From Escherichia phage muut: DNA of 64,000 nt. Location: sequence record NC_052657.1. One strand, written 5' to 3'. This document shows, piece after piece, positions 8,958-11,286 of the stretch. Position 1 is the first letter of the stretch, and every line of letters starts with the position of its first letter. The notes below the pieces were generated by a model. It ran no database searches. It was not told where the DNA came from and saw only the letters and a program-made list of their open reading frames with translations. The position numbers were made by a program, and so were the translations under genes.

Positions 8958-9388
8958 ATAAATTACTTCAGTGTTACCACAAAGTGACGAACTGCTTTTC
9001 GTGCAGCAGAAGCCAGAGGCTTAGCATACTTAAGTTCATCTTTTTCCATTATAAATTCTCTTTTAAATGAAAATGCAGGACTTATTGGCATTGCCTGCGC
9101 AAGCCCTCAAGGGGAACATAGGTTTTTGTATATTTAACGACCAGGATAACCATAAACCCGTCATCATTCACATTCAAGAGGTACACCATAAAACTGCCGG
9201 GGTCTTAAAACTATAATGATTCGCAAATCATTAATCAGACAGTTCGATGGCTCCTCGATTTTAGCTCACACTAAGGCAGTGAATCTCCAATAAACTAAAA
9301 AATCACTTAAAAAGAACCGCTAGAGTTTGAAGGAGAAAACCATGAGCGAAAAGAGAAATTTTCTCTAGCGATTCCATTTAAATAATCT

Positions 9389-9463
9389 TGGAGCGAGTAA
9401 CAGGACTTGAACCTGCACCTGGAGGGTGGAAACCTCATATGCTACCATTAACACTATACCCGC
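9389..9463 (-). tRNA. tRNA-Gly (anticodon UCC)
   Basis: 75 nt; anticodon loop TTTCCAC, T arm GCAGG-TTCAAGT-CCTGT, acceptor GCGGGTA/TACTCGC with one G-U, CCA. Confidence 0.6.
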
Positions 9464-9518
9464 TTAACAATATTACTCTAACATATTATTAGCCCCTTTG
9501 TCAAGAGGCTTTTAATAT

Positions 9519-9842
9519 TTATTTTAAAATAGTAGATGCACCACGTCTGTTTAGATATGCAACCGTAAAGCTCAAATCACCTATTTCTTCAGGTTCCCAC
9601 TGACCTTCTAAGCCATAACAAGAACAATGATATGCGTGTACTTCATAAAACAAAGATGTTTTCATATCATAGAAATAAACGTGAGATTCGCCTTCATAAT
9701 ATGCACAATCATAAGTGGCAGAAAGAATTACAATGTTATCCTTATCTAACTCTACTTCATAATATCTTTCAACATCTTCAATATCATCAAAACCATCGAA
9801 AACATTGATATTAAAATATTTCTCTAACTCTTTTTCTGTCAC
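9519..9842 (-). CDS. hypothetical protein (about 107 aa) embedded in tRNA array
   Basis: ORF between tRNA-Gly and tRNA-Thr; probable GTG start with AGGGGG RBS. Confidence 0.45.
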   Translation of the reverse strand: MTEKELEKYFNINVFDGFDDIEDVERYYEVELDKDNIVILSATYDCAYYEGESHVYFYDMKTSLFYEVHAYHCSCYGLEGQWEPEEIGDLSFTVAYLNRRGASTILK

Positions 9843-9865
9843 ATACACCCCCTTTAGAGTTAAAT

Positions 9866-9940
9866 TGGTGCTCCCACAAGGACTCGAACCTTGATAAGTT
9901 GCTTACAAGGCAACCGTAATAGCCGTTATACGATAGGAGC
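9866..9940 (-). tRNA. tRNA-Thr (anticodon UGU)
   Basis: 75 nt; anticodon arm GTTGC-CTTGTAA-GCAAC, T arm CAAGG-TTCGAGT-CCTTG, acceptor 7 bp with one G-U, CCA. Confidence 0.65.
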
Positions 9941-10019
9941 AAAATATTTGCTTGGTAGGATTTGATACCTACAATTCTAGAAAATTCTAGAGGTTTCTAT
10001 TAACTCTACAAGCACTATT

Positions 10020-10104
10020 TGGCGATGGATCAAGGATTTGAACCTTGCTAGAACTTTCGTTCACGGATTAACAGTCCGTCGCCCAACCACTAGGCCAATC
10101 CATC
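10020..10104 (-). tRNA. tRNA-Asn (anticodon GUU) with unusually long variable arm
   Basis: Exact acceptor GATGGAT/ATCCATC, CCA, discriminator G; anticodon arm ACGGA-CTGTTAA-TCCGT; 15-nt variable hairpin GAAC-GAAA-GTTC. Confidence 0.5.
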
Positions 10105-10111
10105 TTTAATT

Positions 10112-10198
10112 TGGTGCAGGTAGTTGGACTCGAACCAACGAAGCCCCGAAGGGCAGGAGATTTACAGTCTCCAGCAATTGCCGCTATGCGATACCTAC
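10112..10198 (-). tRNA. tRNA-Tyr (anticodon GUA)
   Basis: 87 nt type II; anticodon arm GGAGA-CTGTAAA-TCTCC, variable hairpin GCCC-TTCG-GGGC, T arm GTTGG-TTCGAGT-CCAAC, CCA. Confidence 0.7.
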
Positions 10199-10203
10199 GT
10201 GTT

Positions 10204-10278
10204 TGGTACATCGTGAAGGATTCGAACCTTCGACCTTGGAGTTAAAAGCCCTTGCTCTACCAACTAAGCTAACGATGT
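10204..10278 (-). tRNA. tRNA-Lys (anticodon UUU)
   Basis: 75 nt; exact acceptor ACATCGT/ACGATGT, D arm GCTT-AGTTGGTA-GAGC, loop CTTTTAA, T arm GAAGG-TTCGAAT-CCTTC; anticodon stem only 3 bp. Confidence 0.6.
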
Positions 10279-10406
10279 ATAAATTATCTTTAAAATAGCC
10301 AGTGTTTGCGGCACTGACTATGAGGTATCGGTAAAATGGCTGCCACCATCTGCCGAAAGTTTACTCTGCTAAAGTAAGTAGCCTCAACGCTACATTAAAG
10401 ATAACT

Positions 10407-10492
10407 TGGCGGTAGATGTAGGACTTGAACCTACACGCCGTTTCCGACGACAGTTTAGCAAACTGTTGTGGCTACCATTTCACCAATCTACC
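10407..10492 (-). tRNA. tRNA-Ser (anticodon GCU)
   Basis: 86 nt type II; exact acceptor GGTAGAT/ATCTACC, anticodon arm ACAGT-TTGCTAA-ACTGT, long variable arm, CCA. Confidence 0.7.
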
Positions 10493-10500
10493 GTTTTTAA

Positions 10501-10653
10501 TTATTCAAAACAACCGGAATCTTTTTGTTCTGCTTTTACCATACGAATATTTTTACCATCTTCAGATTGTTGAAGATTAGAATACTCATAAACAACTTTA
10601 TTATTTACAATCTTAACTCCGGTAACAACCTGTCCAATAGTTTTATAATTCAT
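10501..10653 (-). CDS. hypothetical protein (50 aa)
   Basis: Start moved to internal ATG (AGGAG RBS) because longer track ORF overlaps tRNA-Ser(UGA). Confidence 0.4.
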   Translation of the reverse strand: MNYKTIGQVVTGVKIVNNKVVYEYSNLQQSEDGKNIRMVKAEQKDSGCFE

Positions 10654-10671
10654 AAAGCTCCTAGTTGAATT

Positions 10672-10761
10672 TGGAGGAAGATAATGGAGTCGAACCATCA
10701 CCGTATCACTACAATGGGCCAGGGTTCAAACCTGGTTGCGCACCGCTGCGCCCTACCTTCC
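10672..10761 (-). tRNA. tRNA-Ser (anticodon UGA)
   Basis: 90 nt type II; acceptor GGAAGGT/ATCTTCC with one G-U, anticodon arm CCAGG-TTTGAAC-CCTGG, T arm GATGG-TTCGACT-CCATT, CCA. Confidence 0.65.
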
Positions 10762-10824
10762 CGTTATCATACTTTAAATCTAACATAAAACTATCTTGCT
10801 TGTCAAGCAGTTTTTAAAACTTTT

Positions 10825-10906
10825 TGGCCGGGGTGACAGGATTCGAACCTGCATACTCCAATTACTCGGTTAACGCCTGATTAGAAGTCAGGTGAGATAC
10901 ACCCCG
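10825..10906 (-). tRNA. tRNA-Arg-like (anticodon UCU), non-canonical arm order
   Basis: Exact acceptor CGGGGTG/CACCCCG, CCA, T arm GCAGG-TTCGAAT-CCTGT; UCU hairpin sits right after U8-A9 and a D-loop-like segment follows it. Confidence 0.4.
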
Positions 10907-10978
10907 TTTTCACAGTAACTATAACAAAAAACTAAGTAAATGTCAAGATATTTTTACTAAAAATATTATTTAAATTGA

Positions 10979-11084
10979 AGCCTAGTTATGGAATCGAACC
11001 ATATTTCGTATTTAGTTAGACAAAGCGGTCTAACATATTTTTCAGGCTTTGATGGCCTCGGAATTACCAAATACCCTACTAGGC
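10979..11084 (-). ncRNA. tRNA-like element, about 105 nt, with large insertion
   Basis: Exact acceptor GCCTAGT/ACTAGGC and T arm TATGG-TTCGATT-CCATA, no CCA; inner hairpins AGGC-CATCAAA-GCCT and GTTAGAC-CGCTTT-GTCTAAC. Confidence 0.3.
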
Positions 11085-11086
11085 GT

Positions 11087-11171
11087 TGGTGCAAGTGGAG
11101 GGATTCGAACCCTCAAGCATTTAAGCGTTGCGTTTTAAGCACAATGTGTATCACCAATTCCACCACACTTG
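11087..11171 (-). tRNA. tRNA-Leu (anticodon UAA)
   Basis: 85 nt type II; exact acceptor GCAAGTG/CACTTGC, anticodon arm TTGTG-CTTAAAA-CGCAA, T arm GAGGG-TTCGAAT-CCCTC, CCA. Confidence 0.65.
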
Positions 11172-11286
11172 CATATAGGAGATGCATAGCACCTCCTTTT
11201 AAATGGTGGTTCCCCAGGGTTACAATCCCTGCCCTCGACACTTATGAGGTGTGCGCTCTCGTCAGTGAGCTATGGAACCTTGAATA

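What the first reader, a model, noticed from the sequence alone, without database searches (positions are those of the whole stretch)
10825..10906. tRNA-Arg(UCU)-like gene with displaced anticodon hairpin
Acceptor stem (exact), encoded CCA and T arm are canonical, but the UCU anticodon hairpin lies immediately after U8-A9 where the D arm should be, and a D-loop-like GG segment follows it. This looks like a permuted or otherwise non-canonical tRNA body.
Basis: seen in the sequence. Interest (0 to 1): 0.45.

Follow-up and report, generated by a model that had tools for sequence, protein, structure and literature searches.

The report
Phage arginine tRNA with rewired core
This is a real, widely conserved phage gene for an arginine tRNA in which part of the normal cloverleaf (one strand of the D stem plus the D loop) sits after the anticodon arm instead of before it, a tRNA architecture that standard gene finders miss and that I could not find described.

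Summary
On the minus strand at 10906-10825 lies an 82-nt tRNA-like gene in the tRNA cluster of a phi92-like coliphage. It has a canonical acceptor stem, T arm, G73-CCA and a CUUCUAA (UCU) anticodon arm, but no D hairpin. ARAGORN misses it. Rfam's tRNA model scores 38.6 bits only by deleting the D arm.

In 68 distinct homologues, three bases after U8-A9-U pair with three bases after the anticodon arm, with perfect covariation (CUC/GAG, CGC/GCG, CAG/CUG and others). An invariant D-loop-like AAnnGGAGUA-U then leads into the T stem. In canonical numbering the order is 1-9 | 22-43 | linker | 10-21 | 48-76.

All members carry arginine anticodons (UCU, UCG, CCU; ACG in a divergent one), an A after GG (A20, the ArgRS determinant) and mostly G/A73. 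They complement the canonical Arg tRNAs in their clusters. A canonical tRNA-Arg(UCU) occupies the same site in a related phage.

A sister family has isoleucine-type anticodons, U20 and A73. The architecture is essentially phage-only.

Most likely it is a working tRNA-Arg for AGA, which makes up 29% of this window's Arg codons. Charging and 3D fold are untested. I found no prior description.

The parts
10918..10946 (-). Sigma-70-like promoter match TTGACA-17-TATAGT (11 of 12, TG extension). It ends 11 nt upstream of the mature 5' end.
   Evidence: consensus scan only; 9 sites found in the region against 3.5 +/- 2.1 in shuffles. Sequence checked.
10900..10906 (-). Acceptor stem 5' strand, CGGGGUG (RNA positions 1-7).
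   Evidence: Pairs exactly with 10829-10835. All 7 pairs covary across 68 homologues, 99.4% of cells paired.
10897..10899 (-). U8, A9 and U. All three are invariant. The third U faces the invariant U at 10864 and is proposed as the equivalent of U22.
   Evidence: Invariant columns 8-10 of alignment A1. One Ile-type member has A opposite U here.
10893..10896 (-). P2 helix 5' strand CUC, plus A (10893) opposite C (10868). Proposed equivalents of positions 23-25 and 26.
   Evidence: Columns 11-13 pair with 42-40 in 68 of 68 sequences: CG invariant; UA 40, GC 15, AU 12, CG 1; CG 53, GC 8, UA 7. Column 14 against 39: A.C 39, C.A 11, Watson-Crick or GU 16, other 2.
10876..10892 (-). Anticodon arm CCUGA-CUUCUAA-UCAGG. 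The anticodon UCU is at 10883-10885. U33, A37 and A38 are present.
   Evidence: All 5 stem pairs covary. Loops in the family: CUUCUAA 54, CUUCUAC 7, UUUCUAC 3, UUUCUAA 1, CUUCGAA 2, UUCCUAA 1.
10868..10875 (-). Linker CGUUAACC (consensus C-R-U-Y-A-A-n-n), a bulge between the anticodon stem and the P2 3' strand.
   Evidence: Its length is 3-8 nt in divergent members and in the Ile-type family.
10865..10867 (-). P2 helix 3' strand GAG. Proposed equivalent of positions 10-12.
   Evidence: The rival pairing of these bases in a CCGA-GUAA-UUGG hairpin is not supported.
10853..10864 (-). U + AAUUGGAGUA + U, a D-loop-like single strand. Proposed equivalents: U13, A14, A15, n16, n17, G18, G19, A20, G, U, A21, then U48.
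   Evidence: U43, A44, A45, G48, G49, A50, G51, U52, A53 and U54 are invariant in 68 sequences. The base after GG is A in all Arg-type and U in all Ile-type members. This matches the A20 (Arg) and U20 (Ile) identity elements listed in PMC9976931.
10836..10852 (-). T arm GCAGG-UUCGAAU-CCUGU.
   Evidence: 99.1% of cells paired, 4 of 5 pairs with compensatory changes. Identical to the T arm of the T5-like canonical tRNA-Arg(UCU).
10829..10835 (-). Acceptor stem 3' strand CACCCCG.
10825..10828 (-). Discriminator G73 and encoded CCA.
   Evidence: Family discriminator: G 35, A 27, U 5, C 1. CCA is encoded in 49 of 68.

Best explanation
The element is a functional, phage-encoded tRNA-Arg(UCU) that reads AGA codons in infected E. 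coli, built on a non-canonical but conserved core.

Shown:
- The secondary structure is a three-way junction of acceptor stem, T arm and a long anticodon branch.
- In the anticodon branch a 3-bp helix (P2, CUC/GAG, flanked by an A.C and a U.U apposition) encloses the anticodon arm.
- The strand leaving P2 carries a complete D-loop-like sequence (AAnnGGAGUA) and one U before the T stem.

Inferred:
- In canonical numbering the chain runs 1-9, 22-43, linker, 10-21, 48-76. The D-stem 5' strand plus the D loop has moved to the 3' side of the anticodon arm.
- P2 with its two flanking non-Watson-Crick layers plus the 5-bp anticodon stem gives 10 stacked layers. That equals the canonical D stem (4) + 26.44 + anticodon stem (5).
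- U8, A14, A15, G18, G19, A21 and U48 are all present in order. The usual L-shape, elbow and anticodon-to-CCA distance can therefore be kept.
- Host RNase P, EF-Tu and the ribosome see a normal acceptor/T domain.
- Host ArgRS reads A20, C35, U36 and G73.

Why phages keep this topology is not known.
For: Structure:
- P2 pairs are 100% Watson-Crick in 68 of 68 Arg-type sequences and 44 of 44 Ile-type sequences, with compensatory changes. My collection patterns did not impose pairing.

Arg identity:
- Only Arg anticodons occur: UCU, UCG, CCU, plus ACG in a divergent member.
- A follows GG in 68 of 68. The discriminator is G or A in 62 of 68.
- The bacterial Arg determinants are A20, C35, U/G36 and A/G73 (PMC9976931).
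- The sister family with UAU/CAU/GAU anticodons has U after GG and A73 in 44 of 44. These match the Ile determinants U20 and A73.

Use as a decoder:
- The element sits in tRNA clusters on the same strand as the other tRNAs.
- In the seven clusters that also hold canonical Arg tRNAs, the anticodons never coincide.
- At a site with a ~93% identical 135-nt 5' flank, Mooglevirus Mordin has a canonical tRNA-Arg(UCU) and Felixounavirus has this form. Only the tRNA gene itself is replaced.
- The window has no other Arg tRNA, while AGA is 29% of Arg codons, 12.2 per 1000.
- The Felix O1 genome paper noted that an expected tRNA for Arg[AGA] was missing (PMC3185647).
- The acceptor stem and T arm are nearly identical to the T5-like canonical tRNA-Arg(UCU).
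- A near-consensus promoter match lies just upstream.
- E. coli EF-Tu and ribosome accept an engineered D-arm-less tRNA (PMC11551756).
Against: - There is no direct evidence here of transcription, processing, aminoacylation or decoding.
- The three-dimensional threading is inferred from sequence order and layer counting, not modelled or solved.
- A14, A15, G18, G19, A21 and U48 never vary, so there is no covariation to prove tertiary pairs.
- The conserved linker (CRUYAA) has no assigned role.
- All homologues were collected with sequence patterns that required parts of the D-loop-like segment. The invariance of those bases is therefore partly ascertainment. The scans relaxed the linker and position 20 only.
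Confidence: 0.72

Rival explanations
1. Same secondary structure and same decoding role, but a different 3D form. The RNA behaves like a mitochondrial D-arm-less tRNA (a flexible, boomerang-like shape). The GG strand does not rebuild the canonical core, and recognition relies on induced fit.
For: There is no closed D hairpin. E. coli translation tolerates an engineered D-arm-less tRNA (PMC11551756). No covariation is available for tertiary pairs.
Against: - U8, A14, A15, G18, G19, A21 and U48 equivalents, plus a canonical T loop, are strictly kept in 68 sequences. Mitochondrial D-arm-less tRNAs have lost these (established knowledge).
- The base after GG switches A to U with Arg- versus Ile-type anticodons, as for position 20 of a docked D loop.
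- The stack has 10 layers, equal to the canonical one (inference).
Confidence: 0.15
2. A tRNA mimic that is not used in translation, for example a decoy for a host anticodon nuclease or another tRNA-binding defence or regulatory factor.
For: Phage tRNAs are known to counter tRNA-targeting defences (my own knowledge of published T5 and T4 work; not tested here). The unusual core could prevent normal use. No charging data exist.
Against: - The anticodon repertoire complements canonical Arg tRNAs in the same clusters.
- A canonical tRNA-Arg(UCU) occupies the same site in a related phage.
- ArgRS and IleRS identity elements track the anticodon class.
- An intact acceptor/T minihelix with CCA is kept.
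- AGA is abundant in the phage, and this is the only Arg tRNA in the window.
Confidence: 0.08
3. A decayed tRNA pseudogene or gene fragment, which is how tRNAscan-SE's 'Undet/OTHER' calls are often read.
For: Low Rfam score (38.6 bits), no ARAGORN call, and annotated as tRNA-OTHER, tRNA-Undet or not at all in GenBank records.
Against: - 68 distinct sequences come from unrelated phage groups: Justusliebigvirus, Felixounavirus, Asteriusvirus, Mydovirus, a Streptomyces phage and many uncultured viral contigs.
- Compensatory changes occur in all four helices, and 27 columns are invariant.
Confidence: 0.01
4. A standard or class II tRNA that was mis-parsed. Either it is a tRNA with a long variable arm (CCGA-GUAA-UUGG hairpin, the MFE fold), or it is a tRNA-Leu(UAA)/suppressor whose anticodon lies in the GUUAAY linker, as annotated in phages 121Q and 7t3.
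For: The MFE fold draws the GNRA hairpin. GenBank 121Q calls it tRNA-Leu(taa) and 7t3 calls it tRNA-TERM.
Against: - The hairpin is only 67.5% paired. The loop-closing pair is broken in 39 of 64 sequences, and there are essentially no compensatory changes.
- Its bases are used by the perfectly covarying P2.
- The linker is not closed by a stem, has a pyrimidine at the would-be position 37 in the window, and shrinks to 3-5 nt in related members.
- The UCU hairpin is a textbook anticodon arm.
Confidence: 0.01

Closest known systems
Canonical bacterial and phage tRNA-Arg(UCU), e.g. the T5-like gene (Salmonella phage S114) and Citrobacter phage Mordin gt17
   Same: Anticodon loop CUUCUAA, 7-bp acceptor stem, T arm, G/A73, CCA, and GGA in the D-loop sequence. 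The T5-like gene shares the acceptor stem (1 difference) and T arm (identical) with the window element. Mordin's gene sits at the same site as the Felixounavirus member.
   Different: Canonical genes have a closed D hairpin between positions 9 and 26 and a 4-5 nt variable loop. Here the D-stem 5' strand and D loop lie after the anticodon arm, and the D stem encloses the anticodon arm.
Mitochondrial D-arm-lacking tRNAs (e.g. mammalian mt-tRNA-Ser(AGY), nematode mt-tRNAs)
   Same: No D hairpin between the acceptor and anticodon stems. The anticodon stem is extended by extra pairs.
   Different: Those RNAs have lost G18/G19 and the canonical T-loop contacts, work with co-evolved mitochondrial factors, and occur only in organelles (PMC4013460 and PMC11551756 as listed and read). 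The phage RNA keeps every universal core nucleotide and a canonical T loop, and must work with ordinary bacterial enzymes.
Engineered D-arm-less 'mini HisT' in E. coli (Edelmann et al. 2024, PMC11551756)
   Same: A tRNA without a D hairpin used by E. coli EF-Tu and ribosome. It shows the machinery tolerates such cores.
   Different: It is artificial, lacks any D-loop substitute, and needs a pnp mutation for stability. That paper states that all known bacterial tRNAs are canonical cloverleaves.
Circularly permuted tRNA genes of Cyanidioschyzon merolae and other algae
   Same: Gene order of tRNA segments differs from the canonical order.
   Different: There the 3' half precedes the 5' half, and processing through a circular intermediate restores a canonical tRNA (my own knowledge). 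Here the ends are normal and the internal segment 10-21 is displaced, so the mature RNA itself is non-canonical.
allo-tRNAs and (8/4), (9/3) tRNAs (Mukai et al. 2017, PMC5389517)
   Same: Non-standard tRNA architectures found in metagenomes, some in phages.
   Different: Those change the acceptor/T stem lengths and keep a D arm. This one keeps 7/5 and changes the core threading.

Membership tests
tRNA (Rfam RF00005, canonical cloverleaf) | 7-bp acceptor stem, discriminator, 3' CCA (encoded or added) | tested here: met
   7 exact pairs, G73, CCA. All 7 pairs covary.
tRNA (Rfam RF00005, canonical cloverleaf) | T arm: 5-bp stem and 7-nt loop UUCRAnY | tested here: met
   GCAGG-UUCGAAU-CCUGU; 99.1% of cells paired in the family.
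tRNA (Rfam RF00005, canonical cloverleaf) | Anticodon arm: 5-bp stem, 7-nt loop with U33 and purine 37 | tested here: met
   CCUGA-CUUCUAA-UCAGG.
tRNA (Rfam RF00005, canonical cloverleaf) | D arm: hairpin between positions 9 and 26 whose loop carries G18 and G19 | tested here: not met
   The Rfam alignment deletes 15 D-arm positions. ARAGORN makes no call. The GG segment lies 3' of the anticodon arm.
tRNA (Rfam RF00005, canonical cloverleaf) | Score at or above the curated gathering threshold | tested here: met
   38.6 bits against 29. It is the lowest of the window's 14 Rfam tRNA hits.
tRNA (functional definition) | Aminoacylated and used by the ribosome | not testable with these tools
   Needs acid-gel Northern or tRNA-seq and in vitro charging and translation.
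Bacterial tRNA-Arg (ArgRS identity set) | C35 and U36 or G36 | tested here: met
   Anticodons are UCU, UCG and CCU in 68 of 68, and ACG in a divergent member. Identity set from PMC9976931.
Bacterial tRNA-Arg (ArgRS identity set) | A20 in the D loop | tested here: inconclusive
   A follows GG in 68 of 68 and switches to U in the Ile-type family. That this A occupies the spatial position 20 is inferred, not shown.
Bacterial tRNA-Arg (ArgRS identity set) | A73 or G73 | tested here: met
   G in the window. In the family: G 35, A 27, U 5, C 1.
Mitochondrial-type D-arm-less tRNA | D arm absent, together with loss of the conserved G18/G19 and T-loop core nucleotides | tested here: not met
   The D hairpin is absent, but U8, AA, GG, A, U48 and the UUCRA T loop are all invariant.
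Class II (long variable arm) tRNA | Base-paired variable arm between the anticodon and T arms | tested here: not met
   The candidate hairpin is 67.5% paired with no compensatory support.
Circularly permuted tRNA gene | 3' half encoded upstream of the 5' half, with termini inside the gene | tested here: not met
   The acceptor 5' strand is at the 5' end, and the 3' strand plus CCA at the 3' end.
allo-tRNA / (8/4), (9/3) tRNAs | Acceptor stem of 8-9 bp with T stem of 4-3 bp | tested here: not met
   7/5 configuration.

The most novel reading that the evidence does not exclude
Tailed phages of many bacterial hosts carry a previously unrecognised class of translationally active tRNAs. These include arginine and isoleucine types, which mostly serve the rare AGA and AUA codons. 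Their core is re-threaded: segment 10-21 is moved 3' of the anticodon arm. The re-threaded core still rebuilds the canonical L-shape and presents position-20 identity elements to host synthetases. The altered topology may be selected because it escapes host factors that recognise or cut the normal D-arm region.
Probability: 0.45. Interest if true: 0.88.

Novelty: new variant of a known kind. Interest (0 to 1): 0.8.

Why it matters
[quoted passage not shown] Arm-lacking tRNAs are regarded as a mitochondrial peculiarity.
- A natural tRNA with a different strand threading, used in E. coli, Salmonella, Klebsiella, Pseudomonas and Streptomyces by their phages, would show the cloverleaf connectivity is not obligatory even with standard bacterial enzymes.
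- It would explain 'missing' AGA and AUA tRNAs in well-studied phages such as Felix O1.
- It would expose a blind spot of tRNA finders. These genes are unannotated or labelled OTHER, Undet, Leu or TERM.
- It would offer a ready-made scaffold for orthogonal tRNA design.
- It would give a clean natural experiment on how ArgRS and IleRS read position 20.
- If the topology protects against tRNA-targeting defences, it adds a new counter-defence principle.

Tried and rejected
- **MFE fold.** It suggested a GNRA-capped variable-arm hairpin. Covariation counts rejected it.
- **ARAGORN.** It finds nothing on the sub-region. In a few homologues it forces 90-98 nt 'tRNA-Arg(tct)' calls with shifted acceptor stems. 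I treated these as artefacts.
- **Rfam at E<=10 over 10780-11090.** It gave only chance-level hits besides tRNA: PreQ1 15.5 bits, PyrR205 and a plastid UTR.
- **'tRNA-Leu(taa)' and 'tRNA-TERM' annotations.** Rejected, see rivals.
- **Y-RNA link.** Streptomyces phage Francob has a Ro-like protein gene about 1.3 kb upstream of its copy. No other locus shows this, and the RNA has a full anticodon arm. I dropped the Y-RNA idea and did not test it further.
- **Cellular copies.** Only 3 true members turned up among representative genomes of 185,579 species, all on MAG contigs with phage-like tRNA clusters. There were none in 5,426 complete E. coli genomes.
- **Tertiary covariation.** I looked for covariation in U10/U43, A15/U48 and the linker. 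The columns are invariant or uninformative, apart from one A-U at the U.U site.
- **Literature.** Nine full-text searches and seven papers read found no description of this architecture. Subscription-only papers are not covered.
- **3D modelling.** No tool was available.

Full report
**What is there.** The window is a phi92-like coliphage (Justusliebigvirus, Stephanstirmvirinae). A 701-nt stretch around the finding is 99.7% identical to Escherichia phage cardinal. A minus-strand tRNA cluster spans about 8242-11279. ARAGORN tRNAs there, none for arginine and none at the finding. The minus strand from 10906 to 10825 reads CGGGGUG UA U CUC A CCUGA-CUUCUAA-UCAGG CGUUAACC GAG U AAUUGGAGUA U GCAGG-UUCGAAU-CCUGU CACCCCG G CCA. 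Rfam's tRNA model hits it at 38.6 bits (threshold 29). It does so only by skipping 15 D-arm positions and inserting 20 nt before the T arm. Other GenBank records label the same gene tRNA-OTHER, tRNA-Undet, tRNA-Leu(taa), tRNA-TERM or nothing. The only correction is that five bases (UCUCA) separate U8-A9 from the anticodon hairpin.

**Conservation.** A blastn search with 101 nt found at least 231 phage records with a full-length match. At 82-86% identity these include unrelated groups:
- Felixounavirus;
- the jumbo phage 121Q (Asteriusvirus);
- Klebsiella Mydovirus KNP2;
- Klebsiella phage Roth49;
- Streptomyces phage Francob.

Pattern scans of IMG/VR viral contigs, together with the GenBank records already fetched and three MAG contigs from the genome scan, gave 68 distinct sequences (alignment A1).

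**Secondary structure.** The three bases after the invariant U8-A9-U pair with the three bases that precede an invariant UAA. Pairing is complete and compensated:
- C-G is invariant.
- The second pair is U-A 40, G-C 15, A-U 12, C-G 1.
- The third pair is C-G 53, G-C 8, U-A 7.
- There are no mismatches in 68 sequences.

My collection patterns did not require this pairing. The next position inward is A.C in 39, C.A in 11, Watson-Crick or G.U in 16, and something else in only 2. This suggests a wobble-like fourth layer. On the outer side, two invariant U residues face each other. This helix (P2) therefore encloses the anticodon arm, with a bulge C-R-U-Y-A-A-n-n on the 3' side. The acceptor, anticodon and T stems all covary normally.

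The thermodynamic prediction of a GNRA-capped hairpin in the 'variable region' fails. It is 67.5% paired with essentially no compensatory changes. A covariance model of this structure separates the family (83-100 bits; window copy 97.2) from canonical tRNAs (32 bits or less).

**Arginine identity and use.**
- *Anticodons.* All 68 members have arginine anticodons: UCU in 65, UCG in 2, CCU in 1. A divergent member has ACG.
- *Identity elements.* The base after GG is A in all. The discriminator is G or A in 62 of 68. A review of tRNA identity lists A20, C35, U/G36 and A/G73 as the bacterial Arg determinants, with A20 the strongest for E. coli ArgRS (PMC9976931). Canonical phage Arg tRNAs from the same loci mostly also show GGA in their D loops.
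- *Cluster context.* The element lies inside phage tRNA clusters. In the seven clusters that also hold canonical Arg tRNAs, the anticodons never coincide. For example, a UCU member sits with canonical ACG or UCG, and a UCG member sits with canonical UCU and ACG.
- *Same-site replacement.* A 135-nt 5' flank is ~93% identical between Citrobacter phage Mordin (Mooglevirus) and Felixounavirus phages. At that site Mordin has a canonical tRNA-Arg(UCU) and Felixounavirus has the non-canonical gene. The downstream CCAATTT is shared again. Only the tRNA gene is exchanged. The two forms therefore look interchangeable, and no partner gene travels with the non-canonical one.
- *Codon demand.* In the window's long ORFs AGA is 29% of Arg codons, 12.2 per 1000. 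In E. coli AGA is rare (my own knowledge). The Felix O1 genome paper remarked that a tRNA for Arg[AGA] 'might have been expected' but was not found (PMC3185647). The gene is there, between tRNA-Ile and ORF100.
- *Relation to a canonical gene.* The window gene's acceptor stem and T arm are nearly identical to the canonical T5-like tRNA-Arg(UCU).
- *Promoter.* A near-consensus sigma-70-type promoter match ends 11 nt upstream. This is a consensus match only.

**A wider class.** This uncovered a second family with the same architecture. It has 44 distinct 77-nt sequences with UAU (36), GAU (4), CAU (3) and UAC (1) anticodons. The linker is nGAAA, U follows GG, and the discriminator is A in all. 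P2 is 100% paired there, with compensatory changes at all three pairs. U20 and A73 are listed Ile determinants in bacteria. So the base after GG tracks the anticodon class exactly as position 20 of a normal D loop would. A few Ile-type members keep the Arg-type 8-nt linker. Because UCU and UAU differ by one base, this suggests one type arose from the other (inference). Phage contig L071 carries both types.

**Structural model (inference).** Read against canonical numbering, the chain is 1-7, U8, A9, then U22 C23 x24 y25 n26. It continues with anticodon arm 27-43 and a bulged linker whose last base faces n26 like position 44. Next come y'10 x'11 G12 U13, and then A14 A15 n n G18 G19 A20 G U A21, U48 and T arm 49-65. 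In other words, segment 10-21 has moved from before to after the anticodon arm. Three backbone joins change: 9-10, 21-22 and 48-49 become 9-22, linker-10 and 21-48.

Every universally conserved core nucleotide is present in order: U8, A14, R15, G18, G19, A21 and Y48. The stack U.U, three Watson-Crick pairs, A.C and five anticodon-stem pairs has ten layers. That equals D stem + 26.44 + anticodon stem. The variable length of the linker (3, 5 or 8 nt in different subfamilies) fits a bulge that is not part of the stack. I could not model or test this threading. The alternative of a flexible mitochondrial-like shape is kept as a rival.

**Distribution.** The strict motif occurs in only three of the representative genomes of 185,579 species. 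All three are MAG contigs carrying phage-like tRNA clusters. It occurs in none of 5,426 complete E. coli genomes. Hosts of the phages range from enterobacteria to Pseudomonas (a divergent copy in PAK_P2) and Streptomyces.

**Comparison and novelty.**
- It works like a tRNA-Arg.
- It passes Rfam's tRNA threshold but fails one defining feature of the cloverleaf, the D hairpin.
- It is not a mitochondrial-type armless tRNA, because the core nucleotides are retained.
- It is not a class II tRNA.
- It is not a circularly permuted gene, because the termini are normal.
- It is not an allo-tRNA, because it has 7/5 stems.

Nine full-text searches and the non-canonical-tRNA reviews I read mention nothing like it. 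[quoted passage not shown] I rate it a new variant of a known kind. A description in literature outside the searchable library cannot be excluded.

**Limits.** Expression, processing, charging, decoding and 3D structure are untested. The homologue sets were gathered with sequence patterns, so the reported invariance of the D-loop-like segment is partly by construction. Why the topology is maintained is unknown, and escape from host tRNA-targeting factors is only a guess.

Noticed in passing
window 10972-11084 (- strand): A second tRNA-like gene missed by ARAGORN and Rfam. It has acceptor GCCUAGU/ACUAGGC, T arm UAUGG-UUCGAUU-CCAUA, a D-arm-like GGG...UCC with GG, a 7-bp extra hairpin GUUAGAC-CGCUUU-GUCUAAC, and a 4-bp hairpin with loop CAUCAAA (possible UCA anticodon, but A at position 33). 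MFE is -29 kcal/mol, z = -2.85. It is 97-100% conserved in Justusliebigvirus. It is ~70% conserved in Erwinia phages (Hena1, pEp_SNUABM_01), where the matching stretch is annotated tRNA-TERM. It may be a UGA-reading or Sec-like tRNA.
   Followed up: partly
L030:4163-4256(-), L049:1612-1702, L080:6269-6364, L170:7758-7848: ARAGORN-96 nt tRNA-Ile(UAU) genes with a normal cloverleaf plus a base-paired long variable arm. A long variable arm is unusual for isoleucine tRNAs. These sit next to members of the rewired Arg family.
   Followed up: partly
L071:5506-5582 and about 44 other IMG/VR loci (L192-L310): Ile-type sister family of the same rewired architecture: anticodons UAU, CAU and GAU, one UAC, with U after GG and A73. 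L246 carries the single UAC (Val-like) member.
   Followed up: yes
window 10777-10806 and 10918-10946 (- strand): Near-consensus sigma-70-type promoter matches (TTGACA-18-TAGATT and TTGACA-17-TATAGT, both with TG). They sit in the spacers directly upstream of tRNA-Ser(tga) and of the rewired tRNA-Arg, suggesting individually promoted tRNA genes.
   Followed up: no
L007 (Streptomyces phage Francob) 1-147 and 1501-1578: The Francob copy of the rewired tRNA-Arg lies ~1.3 kb downstream of a gene annotated 'Ro-like RNA binding protein' and directly after a canonical tRNA-Arg(gcg). No such neighbour was annotated in the other GenBank loci I examined, so this is probably coincidence.
   Followed up: no
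L190:1640-1773 / L003:1370-1500 / L016:9860-9990: The ~135-nt sequence upstream of the tRNA-Arg site is ~93% identical between Mooglevirus and Felixounavirus. It contains a hairpin (GCCCAC...GUGGGC), although it is intergenic and the tRNA gene next to it has been swapped. Its function is unknown.
   Followed up: no
L080:13348-13426, L067:2689-2763, L069:265-339 (Pseudomonas phage PAK_P2): Divergent members of the rewired Arg class with short linkers (UCA, AGA, AGAAA), an ACG anticodon (L067) or a weakened P2 (L080). They score 53-56 bits with the family model. The class is broader than the strict motif used for scanning.
   Followed up: partly
L184:2109-2182: ARAGORN calls a tRNA with a CUA anticodon ('tRNA-Pyl', i.e. 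amber-suppressor-like) in a 231-kb viral contig that also carries a rewired tRNA-Arg.
   Followed up: no
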